From Candidatus Sungiibacteriota bacterium (GTDB lineage: Bacteria; Patescibacteriota; Minisyncoccia; Sungbacterales; HO2-52-23), in NCBI GenBank assembly GCA_016180435.1, contig JACPBG010000001.1, positions 136,358-200,357 of the forward strand: a DNA stretch of 64,000 nt, written 5' to 3'. Below the pieces are notes generated by a model that saw only the letters and a list, made by a program, of their open reading frames with translations, made no database searches and was not told the origin of the DNA. A program made the position numbers and the translations under genes. Positions 1 to 27,265 of this stretch are shown here, in pieces. How positions within the stretch are numbered: position 1 is the stretch's first letter; each line of letters begins with the position of its first letter.

Positions 1-2394
1 TAAAATATTCCAACACGTTAAGGCCTTCTTTATAAGAAGAGAGTACGGGTAATTCAATAATTTTTCCGGCGGGGTTTACCACAAGTCCTTTCATGCCTGC
101 CATCTGGCGAATCTGGGTCCAGGTGCCGCGCGCCCGCGATTCAACCATGGTTGAAACCGAACTTTCCGGATCAAGCGATGTCGGCACAAGCTTCGTGATG
201 TCTTCCACAACTTTCTGCCATATTTCCACGATTTTTTCATAGCGCTCGCGATCGGTAAGAAGCCCTCTTTGGTATTGTTCAATAATCTGCGAAACGCGCG
301 CTTCCGCATCTTTGATTATTTCTGGCTTGGCATCCGGTATTTTTAAATCATCAATCCCCCATGAAATTCCGGAGCGCGTGGCATATTCAAACCCGAAACG
401 CTTTATGCGATCCAGGATCGGCGGAGTATTCACGATGCCGTAGCGCTTGATGATATGCGCCACTACTTCGGCAAGATCGCGCGATTTCAGCTGCTCATTC
501 ACATATGGAAAATCGTCCGGCAATTCACGGTTAAAAAGCAAACGCCCGACCGATGTCTCAATCAATGTCAGGCCCGTGGGCAATGCGGCATGCGCCTCTT
601 CGGATTTTCGCCCCTCTATTTTGGATGACGGAACCCGAACTTTTATCAATGCCTGAAAATCAACAGCTCCAAACTCGTAAGCAAGCAGGGCATCATCTGC
701 TGATGAGAAAATTTTTCCTTCGCCTTTGAGTCCCTTGCGAACATTGGTCGCAAAATAACAGCCGAGCACCATATCCTTATCCGGATTTACAATCGGATCT
801 CCGGTTGCCGGTTTTAAAAGGTTGTTGGCCGAAAGCATGATATGGCGCGCCTCGGCTTGCGCTTCATCCGTAAGCGGCAGGTGCACAGCCATCTGGTCTC
901 CGTCAAAATCCGCGTTAAACGCCGGACACACCATAGGATGTATTTGAATGGCATCTCCCTCGATTAGAACCGGCTGAAAGGCCTGAATTCCCAAGCGATG
1001 CAGGGTAGGCGCGCGATTCAAAAGAACATATCTTCCCGCAATGACTTCTTCCAATACCGCCCACACGCGCGGATCCTGATCCTCGATCAAGCGGCCGGCG
1101 CCGCGGATATTATGCGCAAATCCCCGCTCAATGAGCTTTCGTATGACAAACGGCTTAAAAAGTTCCAGCGCCATTTTTTTCGGAATTCCGCATTCATTCA
1201 AATTCAAATCCGGCCCGACCACAATGACTGACCGGCCGGAATAATCCACGCGCTTACCCAAAAGATTTTGGCGGAAACGGCCTTGTTTGCCTTTCAAAAT
1301 GTCGGCCAGAGATTTTAAGGGTCGGCGCTGAACTTGGGATGCCACCGGGGCCACTCCGCGGCGGATGGAGTTATCAATCAAAGCATCCACTGCCTCCTGC
1401 AGCATTCTTTTTTCGTTGCGCGTAATAACATCCGGCGCATTCAACTCATGCAGGCGTTTCAGCCGGTTATTGCGGTTTATGACGCGCCGGTATAAATCGT
1501 TTAAATCAGATGTGGCATACCGCCCGCCGTCAAGCTGAACCATGGGACGCAGATCCGGAGGAATAATCGGAATCATGGTCAAAAACATCCATTCCGGACG
1601 TATGCCGGACCGGATTGCGCCCTTAATAATCTGCAGACGCTTCAAGGTTTTTCGCTGCAAAACCGGCGACTGATTTTCAAAATCCGCCTCAAGTTTCTTT
1701 TGCAGATCGGAAAGATTTATACCCTCCAATATCCTCCGGATCGCTTCGGCTCCGATGGACGCTTCAAATGCTTCGCCGAATTTTCTGGACAGGCGGTGAT
1801 ATTCTATTTCCGAAACAACTTGATGCATATGCAGCCCGCGAAGTTCCTCCCGCGCCTTATCGCGGATTTCTTTCAAACTTGCCAGATCTTCGCCGGCAAC
1901 GCCCTTGGATTTTAATTTGAATTCGCGCTCAATTTCCTCAAGCGATGTTTGACGCGCCTCCTCATTTATTTTGGTAATGATGTAACCCGCAAAATAAATT
2001 ACTTTTTCAAGATTCGCGACCGATATATCAAGAATCAAACCGATCTTGGAAGGCACGCCGCGCAAAAACCATATATGCGAAACCGGGGCGGCAAGTTTGA
2101 TATGCCCCATGCGCTCGCGGCGCACAATTGCGCGCGTAACTTCCACTCCGCATTTATCGCATACCACGCCCTTATAACGAATCCTGCGGTATTTACCGCA
2201 ATAACACTCCCAGTCCTTGGTGGGGCCGAAAATCCGTTCATCAAAAAGCCCGTCGCGTTCCGGACGCCCGGTACGATAATTTATGGTTTCGGGTTTAGTC
2301 ACCTCGCCGTATGACCAGCGGGTAATGGCGTCCGGAGAAGCCAGACGCAGGGCAATTCCCGAAAAATCTCCTAAAAATGATTGGATTTCTGGCA
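1..2394 (-). CDS. rpoC: DNA-directed RNA polymerase subunit beta' (N-terminal ~798 aa; ORF runs off the window 5' edge, so it is absent from the ORF track)
   Basis: Manual minus-strand translation from ATG at 2394-2392 gives [58 protein letters not shown]...[15 protein letters not shown], the canonical RpoC N-terminus and catalytic DFDGD motif. The frame stays open to position 1. Confidence 0.9.
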
Positions 2395-10605: not shown

Positions 10606-10682
10606 ATGACCTCGATTCTGGATCGTCCCACGCCACCTGAAAAAATTTCATCAAATAGAACCCAAAAACCTCAAAACTAATA

Positions 10683-11141
10683 ATGCGTATGAATAAATTG
10701 CTGGATTTTTTAAGGTCTCAGAAACTGCTTGTCGTGGCCTGCCATGATAAAGACGATATTTGGATCGCAAATGTATATTTCGGGGTCGATGATAATTTCA
10801 AAATATATTTTATAAGCCCCGAAAATACAAAGCATAGTCAGTTGATAGCTGAAAATCCTGCAGTTGCTTTTTCAGTTGCATGGTTTAATCCAAATAATCA
10901 CAAAGATCGAAAGGCAATACAGGGTCTTGGAGTTTGCCGGCCCGCAAAAACCGAAGAAGAAATTGCAGAGGGGGTGCGACTGCATAATCACAATTTTCCG
11001 GAATTTAAAAACAAAATTACAGTGGAGTGGATTCACACCAACGAATACAAATCGCGTGTATGGATTATTGAACCTTCGTATATGAAATACTGGGATGACG
11101 AGTTATATGGCGACAAAGAGACCGAGGAATTCAAATTTTAA
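10683..11141 (+). CDS. Pyridoxamine 5'-phosphate oxidase-like FMN-binding split-barrel family protein (general stress protein 26-like)
   Basis: 152 aa; layout and size typical of the PNPOx-like family; weak. Confidence 0.45.
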   Translation: MRMNKLLDFLRSQKLLVVACHDKDDIWIANVYFGVDDNFKIYFISPENTKHSQLIAENPAVAFSVAWFNPNNHKDRKAIQGLGVCRPAKTEEEIAEGVRLHNHNFPEFKNKITVEWIHTNEYKSRVWIIEPSYMKYWDDELYGDKETEEFKF

Positions 11142-16897: not shown

Positions 16898-18094
16898 TTA
16901 AATCTTAGCTAGTGCCAACTTTAAATCCTCAATCAAATCCAGAGGGTCTTCCCTGCCGATTGATAATCGCAAGGTCCCTTGAGTAATTTCAGCCTTGGCG
17001 AGTTCTTCTTTAGTCAATTGCCCGTGCGTAGTGGTGGCCGGATGAATCACAAGTGAACGCGACTCACCAATATTTGGCGCATGCCAAAAAAGGCGCAATG
17101 ATTCCAGCACGCGTTTAGCGTCACGTCTTCCGCCTTTTATTTCAAAGGCCATGAGTCCCCCAAAACCCTGCGGCATGATTTTTTTATTCTCCCGCGCACG
17201 GGGACCGAAAGCGGGATAAAATACACGCCGAACTTTGGGGTGCTTTGAAAGAAACCGGGCAACCCTAAGAGCGTTTTTCGAGTGTTCCATGACCCGGCCA
17301 AAAAGCGACTCGGCATGCGATAGAAAAATCGCGGCATTGTCCGGAGACATGCAAGGCCCCAATGTCCTAAACCAACCAAGTCGCATGTCGTCAATCAATC
17401 TTTTCTTCCCGACAATGCATCCGCCGATCACCTCGCCATCGCCAAAATATTTTGAGAGCGAATGCCACACGATATCTGCGCCCCGTTTCAAAGGCTGCGC
17501 CAGAGCCGGGGTTGCCAAAGTGTTATCTATAACCAATTTTATGCCATGACGATGCGCGATTTTAGCAATCGGACGCGGATCAAACAAATCAATAAGGGGA
17601 TTGGATGGATTTTCCAACGCAAGAAACCGGGTATTAGACCGAATGGCGCGTTCCCACTCGTCAAGATCATATGGATTTTCCAGGAGAGTAACCTCAATAC
17701 CAAGTTTCGGGAGCAATTCACGAAAAAGATGCAACACGCCGCCATAGAGCCGGTTAGACGAGACAATATGTCCGCCGCCATTCGCGAGGTGCAAAGATAT
17801 TATAAGAATCGCGGACATGCCGGACGAAGTAGCAAGTCCGGCCTCTGCTCCTTCCAACACTGCGACCCGTTTTTCCAAACGATCAACAGTGCGATTATTA
17901 ATACGGCTGTAAATAAAACCCCCTTCCTTTCCTTCAAAAAGGCGTTTGGCTCGTTCAAAAGATCCAAGGGGGTAAGCAGTTACGCGGTCAACCACGGGCC
18001 GAAGTTCGTGATCTTTGAAATCACCTCCTCCATGTATTTCAAGGGTTCGCGGCCTCAATTTCCATAGATTTTTTGCTGAAAGTTTTTTCTTCAT
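16898..18094 (-). CDS. PLP-dependent Cys/Met-metabolism enzyme (O-acetylhomoserine sulfhydrylase / cystathionine gamma-synthase family)
   Basis: TLEIHGG N-terminal motif, HSLSKYFGDG with the PLP lysine, overall family fit. The track ORF extends to 18163 across the tRNA region, so the start is placed at the internal Met (MKKKLSAK). Confidence 0.7.
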   Translation of the reverse strand: MKKKLSAKNLWKLRPRTLEIHGGGDFKDHELRPVVDRVTAYPLGSFERAKRLFEGKEGGFIYSRINNRTVDRLEKRVAVLEGAEAGLATSSGMSAILIISLHLANGGGHIVSSNRLYGGVLHLFRELLPKLGIEVTLLENPYDLDEWERAIRSNTRFLALENPSNPLIDLFDPRPIAKIAHRHGIKLVIDNTLATPALAQPLKRGADIVWHSLSKYFGDGEVIGGCIVGKKRLIDDMRLGWFRTLGPCMSPDNAAIFLSHAESLFGRVMEHSKNALRVARFLSKHPKVRRVFYPAFGPRARENKKIMPQGFGGLMAFEIKGGRRDAKRVLESLRLFWHAPNIGESRSLVIHPATTTHGQLTKEELAKAEITQGTLRLSIGREDPLDLIEDLKLALAKI

Positions 18095-18103
18095 ATCGGT
18101 TTT

Positions 18104-18160
18104 AATCGCCCCATGGGGAATTGAACCCCGGTTCCTAGGCCCTGCCCTCCCGCCTTTTAC
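18104..18160 (-). pseudogene. tRNA-like 3' fragment (D-arm remnant fused to T-arm and acceptor 3' strand; no anticodon arm)
   Basis: Minus strand: GGGCCTAGGAACCGGGGTTCAATTCCCCATGGGGCGA; T-loop TTCAATT within a GGGG/CCCC stem. Confidence 0.35.
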
Positions 18161-18164
18161 CAAT

Positions 18165-18239
18165 CAGCCTCACCGGGATTCGAACCCGGGTTACCAGGAT
18201 GAGAACCTGGCGTCCTAGACCAAACTAGACGATGAGGCC
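18165..18239 (-). tRNA. tRNA-Glu (anticodon CTC)
   Basis: Minus strand: GGCCTCATCGTCTAGTTTGGTCTAGGACGCCAGGTTCTCATCCTGGTAACCCGGGTTCGAATCCCGGTGAGGCTG. Anticodon stem CCAGG/CCTGG with loop TTCTCAT. Confidence 0.8.
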
Positions 18240-18270
18240 AAAAAGGTGGGAAGGTGAAAGAACCTAGTGT

Positions 18271-18349
18271 CCTAGGCCACTAGACGATAGGGGCATAAAT
18301 CGCCAGAATTTTGGAAAAATCTGGACTAGACCGGACTAGACGACAGGAG
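18271..18349 (-). repeat. Repeat family G, copy 1: tRNA-Glu-like 5' fragment (acceptor plus D-arm) plus upstream region with further D-arm-like GTCTAGT words
   Basis: Minus strand: GCCCCTATCGTCTAGTGGCCTAGG..; about 85% identical to 34318-34395. Confidence 0.55.
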
Positions 18350-18468
18350 TATAAAAAATGGGTCGGTCGGAGCCGTAACGTGTTATATCTCATCATATAC
18401 CATCATCTTACAATGAATAATGATAAATGAGGAGTTATTTTGCAGGAGGTCTATATATTCACCGGACC

Positions 18469-23117: not shown

Positions 23118-23546
23118 TTACCCCGGCGCCTTAAAAAAAGATGGGCTATTTTCATGGAGCGCAAGCCAGCGAATGAATTTCCGATGGCGCGAAGAAACGG
23201 GCCATTCCGATAAATGGCGGTTTGAATAGATACCAATCAAAGCGGGGCTATGCCAAAAATTCCCGGCACCGAAAATCCAGAAAGTTAAAACCGACATCAG
23301 GAAAGCCGCCAATATGCCTAAAAGATTCTTTGCAAAAGTGGCGGTTAAAATGCTTTTCAACGCATCAAAATGGAAATTCAGAAAAACCAGTGAAACGGTG
23401 TCTTCCGGGCAATCAATGCCTTTGGCGGCGGAGGCAATACACCCCTTATGGCTGTTGTCGGAACCGTGATCCATGGCAAACACGCCGGCATTAGCAATGC
23501 CCATGATACTTAAGATTACTATAGCCGCAAGAATAATTTTTATCAT
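23118..23546 (-). CDS. Hypothetical exported/membrane protein (signal peptide, two Cys, HGSDNSHKGC segment)
   Basis: 142-aa ORF directly downstream of the giant surface protein gene. Confidence 0.35.
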   Translation of the reverse strand: MIKIILAAIVILSIMGIANAGVFAMDHGSDNSHKGCIASAAKGIDCPEDTVSLVFLNFHFDALKSILTATFAKNLLGILAAFLMSVLTFWIFGAGNFWHSPALIGIYSNRHLSEWPVSSRHRKFIRWLALHENSPSFFKAPG

Positions 23547-26500
23547 CTAATTATGGATAACAGCTTATTTAAATCCTCCGTCAGAATTCTTAATGCCTCG
23601 GCCAAACTTGCCGTCTGCGAAGAATTCGGGGCAAGCAAAATAGACCCTCCTCCGCCTCCTCCACCGCCTCCGCCGCTGCTTGCTACCACGATACTAAACC
23701 CAACGCTGTTGGTGTTTACGCCTCCGACGCATTCTTTTGACGCGTCGCAGAATAATATTAAGTAATCGCCGGCGCCTCCTTCGTTAAAAATTCCCCATCT
23801 GTTCAAGAAAATATATGTATTGGTATTTAACGCGATGGACGCGCTGGCCTGAATCAGCGTCCTTACATTATCTTTATTTCTTACCGCGTAAATATCAACC
23901 GGATAATAAGCTGTTTTGCCGTCAGCCCGGCTGGAAGTTAAAACAAGAGTGTCAGTCGGCGCGTAAGTAGATTTATCCAACTTCATAAAGAAGCCCGGAT
24001 AAGATGACTGTAAGCTCACAATGCTAAACGGCGCGTTGCTCATATCGCTATTGCCAGTTTCAGTTTCAAGGATTAAAATCTTGTAATCGCCAGGACTCAA
24101 TACCCTTTGTAAATTGCCTTGATCACTTGCGACGATTACCTGTCCAACTGGCCAACTAAAAACTTGTTTGTCTGCAGCAATACCTTTAACAGTTGCAATA
24201 TTGCCTTGCCCAAAACCGTTTTTATCCACAACACTTATCGCGTATGTTTTCCCGAAGCTTCCAATCCAAGTAATTGGTTGCGCCGCACCTATCTGAAATT
24301 GCTCTCCCCCATTCGGAGAAAGAACGGTGATGGAGGGTTGGGTCGCGGCCGTGACAATCTTAAAGTATGAATCGCTTCCGTCAAAAAGAGTTAGGCTATT
24401 ATATGAACTCTTTATTTCCAACGTATATGCTCCGTCAGGAATAGAGGATGGAATGGGAATCTCCTCATAACCGTCGTTAATCGTATTATTGATGAGATAA
24501 TATTCAACTCCGTTGTCGTATCCTCTTAAGCGAATTAAATCTAATACTGCCGAGGATGAAACTCCTGAAGTAGTCCACTTTGCGAAAATGATGCCATCTT
24601 TGCCATTTCCTTTATAATACGTCTCCCCTCCATTCGGCGAAAGAACGGTAATGGAGGGTTGGGAGGTTGGCTGATTAACCGTAATCTGGAATTGTTTTGA
24701 AGCTGATTTCCCGCCGGAGGTTACGGTAACTGTAAATGTATAAGTGCCCACGGCTGTCGGCGTTCCAAAAATAACTCCGTTGGTAGAGCAGCTTCCCGCG
24801 CTATTGCAGGAAACAGGAGAAGTTGAAATCGTTAAACCCGGCGGCAAACCGATTGCGGTCCATTTAGCATCTGATCCGATCCCTGAAGCAGTAATGTTAG
24901 GTTGAGGATAAGCAACTCCCACAGTGCCGGTTGGCAAATCGGCGGCATTAATAATAATTATAGGAACTGGCGTTGGAGCCATAATACTAAACGGAGAATT
25001 TGATGAACTTACTGACGGCGCTGTTTGTCTGACGATTTGAATGTAGTAGGACGTTTCCCCAGGGGCGAGCGGCCCAAGTTTTCCGTCATATAACGTACCG
25101 ACGTTCCAAACAAATGATGTACCATAAACCTGGTTTGCAATAATTCCGTACGCGCCTCCATCTTTACGCACTGCAAAAACTGTATAGTATACATTGCTCG
25201 CATACGCAGAATCCGTCCATTGAATGGTCTGATTTGTTCCTGATTGCCACGCGTGTCCATTCGGCACAGTAACGGTGATGGAGGGTTGAGTATAAAATTT
25301 CTCCAGATAATTTTCCGTCACCCAGCCGTCCGCTCCGGAATCAAAATCTATATACCACCACCAATAACCATTTACATAAATAGGATAGGTAGCGAGGTTA
25401 AGAGGTGAAGGAGAAATAGTGCCAAGAGCGCCAACGGCTTGGGTGCCGCGGATTGGACTGGCAAAATTTGACAAAGACGGAGTGCCCCGCACATTAACTA
25501 TAGCGGTGGTTTTTACCCTATCGCCGATTTGAAATCTTGCAGAAGGATCTATAGTAACCGTCATGCTTGTTTTGGCGATAAGGCCCTGGTTGTCGGTCAC
25601 ATAGAAAACCGGGGTATATACACGGGAGTTAGCGTAAGAATGAGTAAATGTCGCGGTTTGTTGAACCGGAGCCAATGAAAGCGGGACCGGAGAAGGAGAA
25701 GGCATTGGTTGAACCGCTTCATCTCCCCAAACAACCGAATACGAAAGCGGCCCATTTTCCGGATCATACGCACTAACACTCCATGTGCCGGTTTCTCCGA
25801 CTTTCAGCGCAGTCGGACCTTTGACTCCGGAAATAACCGGTGCTTGATTATTAATCGGAGGCGGTGTTGGAAATGGAGTGGGGAACGGCGGAGGAACTTC
25901 AAACTGCGAAAGATTAATTGTCGCAAAAGTCACTCTGCCCGCTCCTATAGAAACATCGGTTTTATTTTTATCATATCCTTTCGCGCTTGCAACAATCGTA
26001 TATTCTCCCGCGCGTAAATTCTCAAAAAACGCAACTCCGCGTTCCGTGGTCTGCGTTCCGATCAGCGTGCCGGACGCGTCATACAAATCAACCGTTGCGT
26101 GATAAATTGTCCCGCAAGGCGGAAGAATTATTGAGGGTCCTCCGTCTGAATGTCCTCCGCCCGAGCCGCCACTCTGAATTTGTTGTAAGGAAGATGACGA
26201 TAACACGCACATTATATTCATACCATTCACACTGACCTGTAAGGATCCGTAATTTTGCGCGGGCCTAGAAAGATCGCGTATAATCAACGCTTTAATGTTC
26301 TGACTACTGTTAGTGTAGGAGCCGTAAATATTCAAAATATCCCCAACCGCTATCTCGGAAAGCGCCATGGAAGTCCTGTCTCTTTGCAAAATGGCTGTTT
26401 GTGAAGTTACTTCAATTAAATATTTCCTGATAGCCGGATAATAATCGGGACTAGCTCCCATGGCTCCCGCGCCTGGTTGTGGCTGCTCTTGAATTTCCAG

Positions 26501-27265
26501 TCCCATGGGACAGGGCAGAGTAACGCCGCTATTTGGATTATCACTAAAATCACGGCAAGGAGAAAAGTATTTATTCACAACCGTAAAACTTGCGGGCGGA
26601 ACTCCGGAAGAGGGCGCAGACAACACTTCCATATTATTTAATTGGATAAAACTCAATCTGACGGGCTTGGTAAGATTCCTCACAACCAGAGCGTCTATGG
26701 AAGAAACTCCGGAATTCGTAAATCCATATACGTTTATGCGGTTTCCGACTTCAAAATCAGACAAAGAAGCCCTTTGCCGGTTTCGCAGCAATAATCTTGT
26801 ATCTGAATCTAATTGGATCGTGTAAAGAACGGATGGCGAAAGCGGGCAGGGGTATTCAACTCCACTCGCGCTTTCGGATTGAAATTTTTGACACCTAACT
26901 CCGACTTCGTAAGATGCTTTGATTTCAGCCGGGAAAGACGGACCGGAAACGCTGCGGACAATAAGATTATTGAACTGCACAATATCATCAAAATCGTCGT
27001 CAAAATCAGGGGGTGGAAAAGGCGGCATGTTTGGCATGGGTACGGATAATAATGTGGGGCTACCCGCCGAACCGCTTCCGCCAGCGACGCCCCCGGCGCC
27101 GGACTGCGCTTGGCTTTGCGACGCTTGTAATTGCTGAACTTTCTCCATAAGAACTTTAAGTTGAGCCTGCAGAGCCGCAATGGTTTCTACATTGATCTGG
27201 GCATAAGTCCAAAAAGGCGCGATCAAAACTGCGCCAAACCATAAACTTATTATATATTTTTTCAC
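23543..27265 (-). CDS. Giant secreted cell-surface protein (1240 aa) with repeated Ig-like/beta-sandwich modules
   Basis: Signal peptide MKKYIISLWFGAVLIAPFWTYA; Gln/Ser/Gly-rich linker; PPFPPPDFDDDFDD; three internal repeats beginning QPSITV(L/T)(S/V)PNG; Pro-rich PFPTPFPTPPP; Gly-12 run near the C-terminus. Confidence 0.65.
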   Translation of the reverse strand: MKKYIISLWFGAVLIAPFWTYAQINVETIAALQAQLKVLMEKVQQLQASQSQAQSGAGGVAGGSGSAGSPTLLSVPMPNMPPFPPPDFDDDFDDIVQFNNLIVRSVSGPSFPAEIKASYEVGVRCQKFQSESASGVEYPCPLSPSVLYTIQLDSDTRLLLRNRQRASLSDFEVGNRINVYGFTNSGVSSIDALVVRNLTKPVRLSFIQLNNMEVLSAPSSGVPPASFTVVNKYFSPCRDFSDNPNSGVTLPCPMGLEIQEQPQPGAGAMGASPDYYPAIRKYLIEVTSQTAILQRDRTSMALSEIAVGDILNIYGSYTNSSQNIKALIIRDLSRPAQNYGSLQVSVNGMNIMCVLSSSSLQQIQSGGSGGGHSDGGPSIILPPCGTIYHATVDLYDASGTLIGTQTTERGVAFFENLRAGEYTIVASAKGYDKNKTDVSIGAGRVTFATINLSQFEVPPPFPTPFPTPPPINNQAPVISGVKGPTALKVGETGTWSVSAYDPENGPLSYSVVWGDEAVQPMPSPSPVPLSLAPVQQTATFTHSYANSRVYTPVFYVTDNQGLIAKTSMTVTIDPSARFQIGDRVKTTAIVNVRGTPSLSNFASPIRGTQAVGALGTISPSPLNLATYPIYVNGYWWWYIDFDSGADGWVTENYLEKFYTQPSITVTVPNGHAWQSGTNQTIQWTDSAYASNVYYTVFAVRKDGGAYGIIANQVYGTSFVWNVGTLYDGKLGPLAPGETSYYIQIVRQTAPSVSSSNSPFSIMAPTPVPIIIINAADLPTGTVGVAYPQPNITASGIGSDAKWTAIGLPPGLTISTSPVSCNSAGSCSTNGVIFGTPTAVGTYTFTVTVTSGGKSASKQFQITVNQPTSQPSITVLSPNGGETYYKGNGKDGIIFAKWTTSGVSSSAVLDLIRLRGYDNGVEYYLINNTINDGYEEIPIPSSIPDGAYTLEIKSSYNSLTLFDGSDSYFKIVTAATQPSITVLSPNGGEQFQIGAAQPITWIGSFGKTYAISVVDKNGFGQGNIATVKGIAADKQVFSWPVGQVIVASDQGNLQRVLSPGDYKILILETETGNSDMSNAPFSIVSLQSSYPGFFMKLDKSTYAPTDTLVLTSSRADGKTAYYPVDIYAVRNKDNVRTLIQASASIALNTNTYIFLNRWGIFNEGGAGDYLILFCDASKECVGGVNTNSVGFSIVVASSGGGGGGGGGGSILLAPNSSQTASLAEALRILTEDLNKLLSIIR

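What the first reader, a model, noticed from the sequence alone, without database searches (positions are those of the whole stretch)
18104..18349. tRNA-Glu(CTC) nested between the two halves of a second Glu-like tRNA lacking its anticodon arm
Order on the minus strand: 5' fragment GCCCCTATCGTCTAGTGGCCTAGGAC (acceptor plus D-arm); 31-nt spacer; intact tRNA-Glu(CTC); 4-nt spacer; 3' fragment GGGCCTAGGAACCGGGGTTCAATTCCCCATGGGGCGA (D-arm remnant, T-arm, acceptor 3' strand). Both fragments contain GCCTAGGA, and joining them there gives a tRNA-shaped molecule without an anticodon stem-loop. Possible explanations: a tRNA gene interrupted by insertion of a segment carrying another tRNA; a recombination scar; a split or permuted tRNA arrangement.
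Basis: seen in the sequence. Interest (0 to 1): 0.55.

Follow-up and report, generated by a model that had tools for sequence, protein, structure and literature searches.

The report
tRNA gene nested inside another tRNA
In this Candidatus Sungbacteria (CPR) genome a complete tRNA-Glu gene sits where the anticodon loop of a second tRNA-Glu should be, and dozens of other CPR bacteria keep this previously undescribed "tRNA-in-tRNA" design, here in a slightly decayed copy.

Summary
The outer tRNA-Glu-like gene (minus strand, 18294..18106) does have an anticodon stem, CTAGG/CCTAG. Its anticodon loop is replaced by a 123-nt cassette: a 23-nt C-rich linker, an intact tRNA-Glu(CTC) (18239..18165) and a 25-nt G-rich linker that pairs with the first.

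This is not a one-off scar. Pattern scans found the same nested design in five CPR genomes and in more than 40 distinct metagenome loci. In 34 of 46, the outer has a perfect 7-bp acceptor and 5-bp T-stem. The outer anticodon stem was not used for selection and is 91% paired, against 54% when partners are shuffled. Many loci lie beside murF orthologues only 22-78% identical, so the design is old and maintained. Nested tRNA-Arg and tRNA-Lys examples share the CCCGCC/GGCGGG linker module.

ARAGORN (with intron search) and Rfam see only the inner tRNA. I found no BHB motif, no group I core and no paper describing this.

The window's outer is mildly damaged (acceptor 5/7, T-stem 4/5), and a third, older 5' remnant lies upstream.

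What the outer does is unresolved. It could be a non-decoding two-piece tRNA body or an exon pair that gets spliced.

The parts
18303..18350 (-). Layer A: decayed 5' half of an older outer tRNA-Glu. It has an acceptor 5' strand ACTCCTG, TC, a D-arm GTCTAGTCCGGTCTAG that lacks the GAC, and a hairpin CCAGA/TCTGG. No matching 3' half exists downstream.
   Evidence: Read from the sequence. Its first 17 nt are identical to the 5' half in the Sungbacteria locus L018. The same (G/A)CTCCTG..CCAGG TTCTTT type of outer 5' half occurs in L019 and L249.
18263..18294 (-). Layer B, outer tRNA-Glu 5' half: acceptor GCCCCTA (18294..18288), TC, D-arm GTCTAGTGGCCTAGGAC, A26 (18268), and the anticodon-stem 5' strand CTAGG (18267..18263).
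   Evidence: All segments fall in register with 42 homologous outers.
18240..18262 (-). 5' linker TTCTTTCACCTTCCCACCTTTTT. TTCT extends the anticodon stem, TTCA is an unpaired bulge (anticodon-like UUC plus A), and the C-rich strand forms the linker helix.
   Evidence: Folds. It belongs to the class-2 linkers (TTCTTTCA-CCCGCC..), as in L177, L264 and L019.
18165..18239 (-). Layer C: intact inner tRNA-Glu, anticodon CTC at 18203..18201, discriminator G at 18165.
   Evidence: ARAGORN. Rfam RF00005 at 58.8 bits, E = 3.7e-10.
18140..18164 (-). 3' linker ATTGGTAAAAGGCGGGAGGGCAGGG, the G-rich strand that pairs with the 5' linker.
   Evidence: Folds. It carries the GGCGGG..CRGG motif shared with the other nests.
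18106..18139 (-). Layer B, outer 3' half: anticodon-stem 3' strand CCTAG (18139..18135), variable loop GAAC, T-arm CGGGG TTCAATT CCCCA (4/5 pairs), acceptor 3' strand TGGGGCG (5/7 pairs with GCCCCTA), discriminator A at 18106.
   Evidence: score 11 of 14. It is two changes from a perfect partner: a G-to-A at the last T-stem position and one missing A in TAGGGGC (my reading of the sequence).
16898..18094 (-). Downstream gene, an O-acetyl/succinyl-homoserine sulfhydrylase-like PLP enzyme, starting 11 nt after the outer tRNA. It is context only and not part of the element.

Best explanation
The locus is a partly decayed member of an old, selectively maintained tRNA-in-tRNA gene design of CPR/Patescibacteria. 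A cassette sits in the anticodon loop of a host (outer) tRNA of the same amino-acid identity. The cassette consists of a C-rich linker, a complete tRNA and a G-rich linker. Inferred mechanism: one transcript folds into two cloverleaves joined by the linker helix, which continues the outer anticodon stem. RNase P and RNase Z (or equivalent 3' trimming) release the inner tRNA-Glu(CUC), which is the working decoder. The outer halves stay paired through the acceptor stem, anticodon stem and linker helix. They form a two-piece tRNA-Glu body without a contiguous anticodon loop. I take that body to have a non-decoding role that needs the acceptor, T and D arms, such as precursor folding, end definition and stability, or an acceptor-arm-dependent use. 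In this window the outer has begun to decay, so it probably acts only as a structured leader and trailer for the inner tRNA. Shown: the anatomy, its recurrence, covariation, age, and invisibility to annotation tools. Inferred: co-transcription, the processing enzymes and the role of the outer.
For: The same design occurs in Paceibacterota (L016, perfect), Saccharibacteria (L015, L019), Harrisonbacteria and Sungbacteria genomes. The metagenome scan hit its 120-locus limit, and 46 distinct nests were found, 34 of them with a 7/7 acceptor, 5/5 T-stem and TTCRA loop built from many different acceptor sequences. The outer anticodon stem was not used for selection. It is 91% paired, against 54% (maximum 64%) in 1000 partner shuffles, with 5-7 standard pair types per position. 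With a synthetic loop, ARAGORN of 42 joined outers as tRNA. Unselected outer features match those of the inner tRNAs: a 4-nt NAAC variable loop, a purine at 26, discriminator A30/G11 versus A32/G10, and CCA encoded in 8 versus 8. Outer and own-inner identity is 0.66, against 0.60 for unrelated pairs, so the two evolve independently. Fourteen nests of all linker classes lie just downstream of MurF-like genes that are 22-78% identical, median 42%. Linker helices pair in every locus despite different sequences. The 5' linker has CCC in 37/42 and GGG in 0/42, and the 3' linker has GGG in 36/42. Thirty G.U pairs fit only the sense RNA. Evidence for a non-decoding role: class-3 Glu nests and the Lys nest have no anticodon-loop bases at all yet have perfect outer stems, and some class 2/4 outers lack UUC (L228, L231).
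Against: No RNA data exist, so co-transcription and processing are inferred. No concrete non-decoding function can be named. In class-1 nests the unpaired bases flanking the helix are invariably UUC and UCAN. These bases exactly rebuild a Glu(CUC) loop, and CUUC/UAA rebuilds an Arg(UCU) loop. That fits splicing into a decoding tRNA better than a scaffold role. The outers keep every tRNA-Glu hallmark, which would also be expected of a true decoder. My scan was anchored on the 5' half, so decay rates of the two halves cannot be compared. No consensus promoter or terminator was found at the window's locus.
Confidence: 0.5

Rival explanations
1. It is a true intron of a new bacterial type. The cassette (linker, tRNA, linker) is excised from the outer pre-tRNA and the exons are ligated. 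One locus then yields two decoding tRNAs: the inner via RNase P and Z, and the outer via an unknown endonuclease and ligase, or via RNase P/Z cuts followed by trimming and a 5'-P/3'-OH ligase.
For: In 13 class-1 Glu nests, removing CCCGCCUGCC...GGCGGGCAGG joins UUC to UCAN, which gives the canonical Glu(CUC) loop. In L188 the same cassette ends flank CUUC and UAA, which gives the canonical Arg(UCU) loop. Those loop bases stay invariant across loci whose murF neighbours are deeply diverged. The outers keep the discriminator, variable loop and CCA statistics of working tRNAs. In class 2, including the window, the outer carries CUUUCA, a UUC-type loop, while the inner is CUC, so the locus could supply both isoacceptors.
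Against: No BHB motif is present; the folds show a 3x4 internal loop or a 4-nt bulge. No group I or other ribozyme family matches, and only about 45 nt of the cassette is not tRNA. With the same cut rule, class 2/4 would give 8-9-nt loops, for example L180 CUUUUUCAA versus its inner CUUUCAA. Class 3 and the Lys nest have no loop bases to rejoin. No bacterial enzyme for this is known, which rests on my own knowledge.
Confidence: 0.3
2. It is a selfish or addictive insertion. A small cassette with inverted-repeat ends inserted into the anticodon loop and killed the host tRNA gene, while its cargo tRNA compensates. The outer is a pseudogene that looks intact only where the insertion is recent or where gene conversion from other tRNA-Glu genes refreshes it.
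For: A decay series exists. Twenty-eight further loci have a good inner tRNA but a decayed or missing outer 3' half, and the window itself has a 5/7 acceptor and an older 5' remnant upstream. L180 and L246 have outers 100% and 96% identical to their inner tRNAs. Similar cassette ends occur in Glu, Arg and Lys hosts. L241 repeats the 5' half plus linker.
Against: Nests of all classes sit at an orthologous position beside murF genes only 22-78% identical, so most are old. They still have perfect, covarying outer stems and tRNA-like unselected positions. Mean identity between an outer and its own inner is only 0.66. No transposase or integrase is among the recurrent neighbours. No target-site duplication is visible in the sequence.
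Confidence: 0.15
3. It is a local recombination or deletion scar from two adjacent tRNA-Glu genes, or an assembly artefact, specific to this genome.
For: tRNA-Glu-like fragments are piled up at this locus. The tRNA locus is not syntenic in the closest relatives, whose downstream gene is 85% identical.
Against: The same architecture appears in more than 70 independent contigs from different studies and assemblers. The linkers are complementary to each other rather than direct repeats, which deletion from tandem genes would not produce. The covariation results argue against it as well.
Confidence: 0.03

Closest known systems
Archaeal and eukaryal intron-containing pre-tRNAs (BHB introns cut by EndA/TSEN, some with cargo such as the C/D box RNA in Haloferax tRNA-Trp)
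   Same: An intervening sequence lies in or next to the anticodon loop. Exon-proximal helices bring the two halves together. The intron can carry a functional RNA.
   Different: The host is a bacterium. No 3-nt bulge / 4-bp / 3-nt bulge motif is present. The cargo is a complete tRNA of the same identity. Several classes have no loop bases left to rejoin. Statements about EndA and the Haloferax intron rest on my own knowledge and on reviews PMC4090602 and PMC3400036, seen only as titles and abstracts in the search results.
Group I introns in bacterial tRNA anticodon loops (Leu, Arg, fMet, Ile2)
   Same: They occur in bacteria and lie in the anticodon loop. The class-1 cassette has C at -1 and a 3'-terminal G, which that family also tolerates or prefers (10.1101/2020.01.27.920355).
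   Different: No group I core is present. Rfam gives no intron or ribozyme hit at E <= 1 in the window region or E <= 0.05 in five nests. The cassette is only about 120 nt, of which about 75 nt is tRNA.
Split tRNAs of Nanoarchaeum equitans (which include tRNA-Glu and tRNA-Lys)
   Same: The 5' and 3' tRNA halves are brought together by a G+C-rich helix placed at the anticodon-loop position. Once the inner tRNA is removed, the outer would be a two-piece tRNA.
   Different: Here both halves lie in one gene, flanking another tRNA, and in a bacterium. The Nanoarchaeum halves are separate genes joined by BHB splicing. This comparison rests on my own knowledge.
tmRNA, including two-piece tmRNA
   Same: It has a tRNA-like acceptor and T-arm domain whose anticodon arm is replaced by a long helix leading to another functional domain. 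Two-piece forms work as base-paired halves.
   Different: The nests have no mRNA-like domain and no pseudoknots, keep a full D-arm, and give no meaningful Rfam tmRNA hit (one search shows only an 18-nt 3'-end match at 16 bits). The distal domain is a tRNA.
tRNA fragments left by integrases at att sites
   Same: Partial tRNA copies lie next to an intact tRNA gene.
   Different: Att duplications are direct repeats of the tRNA 3' part separated by a kb-scale element with an integrase. Here the halves are a 5' half and a 3' half of a different tRNA sequence, 123 nt apart, with no integrase nearby. L017 is an ordinary partial tandem duplication of tRNA-Glu and serves as a contrast to nesting.

Membership tests
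Canonical bacterial tRNA gene (inner element) | Cloverleaf recognised by tRNA finders, with a 7-nt anticodon loop | tested here: met
   ARAGORN calls tRNA-Glu(ctc) at 18164..18240. Rfam RF00005 scores 58.8 bits against a gathering score of 29.
CPR nested tRNA-in-tRNA (family defined here) | An outer 5' half (acceptor strand, D-arm, anticodon-stem strand) lies upstream of a complete tRNA, and an outer 3' half (anticodon-stem strand, 4-nt variable loop, T-arm, complementary acceptor strand) lies downstream of it. | tested here: met
   All segments are present in register. The anticodon stem is 5/5, the T-stem 4/5 and the acceptor 5/7, giving a score of 11/14 where most members score 14.
CPR nested tRNA-in-tRNA (family defined here) | A C-rich 5' linker pairs with a G-rich 3' linker (CCCNCC / GGNGGG module) and continues the outer anticodon stem. 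| tested here: met
   In the window, CCTTCCCACCTTTT pairs with AAAAGGCGGGAGGG, and TTCT pairs with AGGG. Family-wide strand asymmetry is 37/42 and 36/42.
CPR nested tRNA-in-tRNA (family defined here) | The inner and outer tRNAs have the same amino-acid identity. | tested here: met
   Both carry the Glu-type D-arm TCGTCTAG..AGGAC and a 4-nt variable loop. The Arg-in-Arg and Lys-in-Lys nests follow the same rule.
BHB-intron pre-tRNA (archaeal/eukaryal type) | Two 3-nt bulges separated by a 4-bp helix at the exon-intron junctions | tested here: not met
   Folds of 38 nests show a 3x4 internal loop, a 4-nt/1-nt bulge or a continuous helix, and never the 3-4-3 pattern.
BHB-intron pre-tRNA (archaeal/eukaryal type) | A splicing endonuclease (EndA/TSEN) is encoded by the organism. 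| not testable with these tools
   Only 64 kb of the genome is available. None of the recurrent neighbour genes is an endonuclease or ligase.
Group I intron in a tRNA | A conserved catalytic core (P3-P9) detectable by the Rfam Intron_gpI model | tested here: not met
   No such hit at E <= 1 in window 18050..18420 or at E <= 0.05 in L195, L170, L157, L188 and L192.
Permuted tRNA gene | The 3' half is encoded upstream of the 5' half. | tested here: not met
   The order is 5' half, cassette, 3' half.
Split tRNA (separate half-genes) | The halves are encoded at separate loci, each with its own promoter. | tested here: not met
   The halves are 123 nt apart on one strand. Separate promoters are not supported, although that scan covers only the sigma-70 consensus.
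Integrase att-site tRNA duplication | A direct repeat of part of the same tRNA flanks an element that encodes an integrase. | tested here: not met
   The window's outer and inner share 68% identity over the compared positions and are complementary halves, not repeats. The neighbours are DUF5676, DsbD-like, AhpC and a sulfhydrylase.

The most novel reading that the evidence does not exclude
CPR bacteria may have a third kind of tRNA intron, neither group I nor BHB. Its cargo is itself a tRNA, and its conserved ends (5'-CCCGCC...GGCGGG-CRRG-3') would direct a so far unknown protein-dependent excision and ligation pathway. One gene would then yield two tRNAs. Alternatively, the outer may mature into a two-piece, anticodon-less but chargeable tRNA-Glu/Arg/Lys body with a non-ribosomal role.
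Probability: 0.35. Interest if true: 0.92.

Novelty: new variant of a known kind. Interest (0 to 1): 0.8.

Why it matters
Disrupted tRNA genes (intron-containing, split or permuted) are treated as an archaeal and eukaryal speciality, and self-splicing group I introns are the only known interruption of bacterial tRNA genes. This family shows that a large bacterial radiation keeps a different interruption under selection, a whole tRNA inside the anticodon loop of another, over deep evolutionary time. That has three consequences.

1. tRNA annotation of CPR genomes misses the outer genes, because ARAGORN and Rfam see only the inner tRNA. tRNA complements used in reports on CPR translation may therefore be incomplete.
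2. If the outers are spliced, bacteria have an undiscovered tRNA splicing route. If they are not, there is a class of conserved anticodon-less tRNA bodies whose function needs to be found.
3. The layered remnants (A, B and C in this window) record how tRNA genes are disrupted and replaced, which bears on models of tRNA gene evolution from halves.

Tried and rejected
1. Synteny through the downstream sulfhydrylase gene. Relatives with an 85% or 79% identical protein have other genes upstream and no tRNA, so this was uninformative for the element. An exact look-up of the window's protein returned nothing.

2. The first genome scan used a D-loop gap of 6-11, which excludes the window's own 5-nt gap. 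It still found five CPR nests, but it underestimates prevalence.

I did not inspect those hits and abandoned the pattern. The 5' pattern in viral contigs gave no CPR-type nest.

4. ARAGORN with introns allowed finds no outer tRNA.

5. BHB motif: I tried both possible registers by hand and with the folds, and neither fits.

6. Ribozyme or group I identity: no Rfam hit.

7. One cut rule for all linker classes. The class-1 rule gives perfect loops only in class 1. It gives 8-9-nt loops in classes 2/4 and nothing in class 3, so a uniform splice model was not established.

8. Gene conversion from a neighbouring tRNA-Glu. No second tRNA-Glu lies on the 241 kb of nested contigs, so this could not be tested.

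9. An A-contains-B-contains-C insertion history for the window. MAFFT aligns L018's tRNA with the window's inner as readily as I had aligned it with the outer, so the order of events is unresolved.

10. Promoter and terminator scan: no consensus sites.

11. Six literature searches and one paper found no description of nested bacterial tRNAs.

Full report
OBSERVATION. On the minus strand the window reads as follows:

GCCCCTA TC GTCTAGTGGCCTAGGAC A CTAGG | ttctttcaccttcccaccttttt | [tRNA-Glu(CTC), 18239..18165] | attggtaaaaggcgggagggcaggg | CCTAG GAAC CGGGG TTCAATT CCCCA TGGGGCG A

ARAGORN and Rfam call only the middle tRNA. The key anatomical claim is also wrong. The GCCTAGGA in the 3' fragment is not a D-arm remnant. 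It is the 3' strand of an anticodon stem (CCTAG) plus the variable loop (GAAC), and it pairs with CTAGG directly after position 26 of the 5' half. The outer molecule therefore has an acceptor stem, D-arm, anticodon stem, variable loop and T-arm, and it lacks only a contiguous anticodon loop. In the predicted fold the anticodon stem runs on into a 9 + 7 + 5-6 bp helix formed by the two linkers, with the inner tRNA at its tip (dG -84 kcal/mol, z = -3.1). A third Glu-like 5' fragment, ACTCCTG TC GTCTAGTCCGGTCTAG.., lies upstream at 18350..18303.

ORGANISM. rpoB and trpS are bacterial. The downstream sulfhydrylase is 100% identical to a protein of a Candidatus Sungbacteria MAG on a 365-kb contig, and its homologues come from Parcubacteria-type CPR lineages. 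An archaeal-type explanation is therefore not available by default.

IT IS A FAMILY, NOT A SCAR. Close relatives do not keep a tRNA upstream of the sulfhydrylase gene, so I searched for the signature itself: two tRNA-Glu D-arms only 20-50 nt apart, a spacing that tandem genes cannot produce. The genome collection gave six hits, five of them CPR.

- L016 (Paceibacterota) is a perfect example, with acceptor GCCCCCA/TGGGGGC, a D-arm, an anticodon stem, an intact inner tRNA-Glu(CTC), a T-arm and a terminator.
- L015 and L019 (Saccharibacteria) are nested too.
- L020 (Harrisonbacteria) and L018 (Sungbacteria) keep only the 5' half plus linker.

The metagenome scan reached its 120-locus limit. Of 98 hits with a good inner tRNA, 58 (46 distinct) have an outer T-arm and a complementary acceptor strand after the inner tRNA. 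Of those 46, 34 are perfect: a 7/7 acceptor, a 5/5 T-stem and a TTCRA T-loop. They are built from many different acceptor sequences. By my estimate, a perfect match at any of about 140 positions has a chance probability near 2e-6 per locus.

SELECTION ON THE OUTER.
- The outer anticodon stem played no part in choosing the examples. It is 91% paired, against 54% (maximum 64%) in 1000 partner shuffles, with 5-7 standard pair types per position.
- Joined by a synthetic loop, 36 of 42 outers are called tRNA by ARAGORN.
- Positions I did not select on behave like those of the working inner tRNAs. The variable loop is the 4-nt NAAC type, position 26 is a purine, the discriminator is A30/G11 versus A32/G10, and CCA is encoded in 8 versus 8 of 42.
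- Outer and own-inner identity (0.66) barely exceeds that of unrelated pairs (0.60). Only L180 (1.00) and L246 (0.96) are near-identical.
- Fourteen nests of all linker classes lie just downstream of a MurF-like ligase, preceded by PBP2/FtsI in ten loci. Those MurF proteins are 22-78% identical, median 42%. The nest has therefore stayed at an orthologous housekeeping position through deep divergence while its outer stems remained intact.

THE LINKERS. The two linkers pair in every locus, although their sequences differ. The helix is strand-asymmetric. CCC occurs in 37/42 5' linkers and GGG in 0/42, while GGG occurs in 36/42 3' linkers. The helices contain 30 G.U pairs, which work only in the sense RNA. 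There are three classes.

- Class 1: AC-stem-UUC | CCCGCCUGCC..[inner CUC]..GGCGGGCAGG | UCAN-AC-stem. The unpaired bases together are exactly a Glu(CUC) anticodon loop, split between positions 34 and 35.
- Classes 2/4 (class 2 includes the window): YUUUUUCA or UUCUUUCA, then CCCGCC or CCCCGCACC.., and on the 3' side ..GGCGGG-CRRG-N. Four bases extend the stem, and UUCA is left as a bulge.
- Class 3 (L016 and others): CCCUUUU/AAAAGGG continues the anticodon stem directly, with no loop bases.

NOT ONLY GLU. Among the 80 other tRNAs on the contigs I held, two are nested.

- L188 has tRNA-Arg(UCU) inside an Arg-like outer with the same class-1 ends, CUUC | CCCGCCUGCC .. GCGGGCAGG | UAAG. Removing the middle gives CUUCUAA, a canonical Arg(UCU) loop.
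- L262 has tRNA-Lys(UUU) inside a Lys-like outer whose anticodon stem is itself GCCCGCC/GGCGGG followed by AAAUUU (z = -5.3).

WHAT IT IS NOT. ARAGORN with introns enabled sees only the inner tRNA in all 46 nests. Rfam at permissive thresholds finds only the inner tRNAs, with no group I or other ribozyme family. The junctions do not form a bulge-helix-bulge motif. The element is not permuted, not split into separate genes, and not an att-site duplication. L017 serves as a contrast: it is an ordinary partial tandem duplication. Six literature searches and one paper found no description of a tRNA nested in a tRNA. The known bacterial tRNA introns are group I.

THE WINDOW'S COPY. It is a class-2 member with an intact linker helix and a 5/5 anticodon stem. 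Its 3' half is two changes from perfect, which leaves the T-stem at 4/5 and the acceptor at 5/7. A decay series exists elsewhere. Twenty-eight further distinct loci have a good inner tRNA but a decaying (L019, L164, L217, L230, L221) or missing (L018, L187, L201, L242 and others) outer 3' half. The upstream fragment A shares its first 17 nt with the 5' half of L018 and resembles the outers of L019 and L249. The locus thus holds three layers: a remnant A, a damaged B and an intact C. The order of events is not resolved. The locus has ordinary neighbours and no consensus promoter or terminator.

MECHANISM. The anatomy, recurrence, covariation and age are shown. The rest is inferred. One transcript folds as a double cloverleaf, and RNase P and RNase Z release the inner tRNA, which is the working tRNA-Glu(CUC). 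For the outer I weigh three readings.

- (a) A non-decoding two-piece tRNA body or processing scaffold, probability about 0.5. It is favoured because class 3, the Lys nest and some class 2/4 members have perfect stems without any anticodon.
- (b) A true intron whose exons are ligated, about 0.3. It is favoured by the exact and invariant loop halves of class 1 and the Arg nest, and by the outers keeping all tRNA hallmarks. It is weakened by the absence of any known motif or enzyme, and by the 8-9-nt loops the same cut rule gives in classes 2/4.
- (c) A selfish insertion with a compensating cargo tRNA, about 0.15. It is supported by the decay series and by L180 and L246. It is contradicted by the age and covariation of most nests.

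In this window the damaged outer most likely serves only as a structured leader and trailer.

VERDICT. The element belongs to a widespread, old and apparently undescribed architecture of CPR bacteria.

Noticed in passing
L188:1937-2113 (+), with a Glu nest at about 10673-10800 (-) on the same contig: One contig carries two nests of different identity and linker class: Arg(UCU)-in-Arg with class-1 ends and Glu(UUC)-in-Glu with class-4 linkers. A single genome can therefore hold several nested tRNAs.
   Followed up: partly
L262:1230-1390 (+) and 1391-1520 (+): A Lys(UUU)-in-Lys nest (z = -5.3) is followed directly by a Glu nest that has lost its outer 3' half.
   Followed up: partly
L241 (+) about 1455-1720; compare L180: The outer 5' half plus 5' linker is present twice in tandem before the inner tRNA. 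In the related L180, the outer halves are 100% identical to the inner tRNA. This could be a recent duplication, gene conversion or an assembly repeat.
   Followed up: no
window 18140-18156 (minus strand): The 3' linker GGCGGGAGGGCAGGG has four G-runs separated by 1-2 nt, which makes it a possible G-quadruplex former. G-rich 3' linkers are general in the family (GGG in 36/42).
   Followed up: no
L022:791-990, L023:100-335, L026:4130-4372 (IMG/VR viral contigs): Phage contigs carry tandem tRNA-like genes of about 60 nt. They have a Glu-type D-arm and a T-arm but only a very short anticodon arm, for example TTATCGTCTAGAGGCTTAGGACGCTCTAATTGAGAAACATGGGTTCAAATCCCATCGGAGA.
   Followed up: no
L017:5705-5840 (-): A contig binned as a Halobacteria archaeon MAG carries a bacterial-type tRNA-Glu(TTC) preceded by a direct partial duplication of its first ~47 nt plus the 8 nt upstream. 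This suggests a binning error or a transferred segment, and it is an ordinary tandem partial duplication.
   Followed up: no
nested loci L170, L175, L177, L191, L192, L195, L199, L200, L204, L205, L215, L231, L234, L249: The nested tRNA-Glu sits at the 3' end of the cell-division and cell-wall cluster (PBP2/FtsI then MurF-like ligase). Six other nests lie next to tsaD. I do not know whether this position is functionally linked or is only a stable tRNA site.
   Followed up: partly
window 23543-27265 (-): A 1240-aa ORF has only weak similarity to an anammox S-layer glycoprotein family (E = 9e-9, far below the cut-off). It may be a large surface protein of this CPR bacterium.
   Followed up: no
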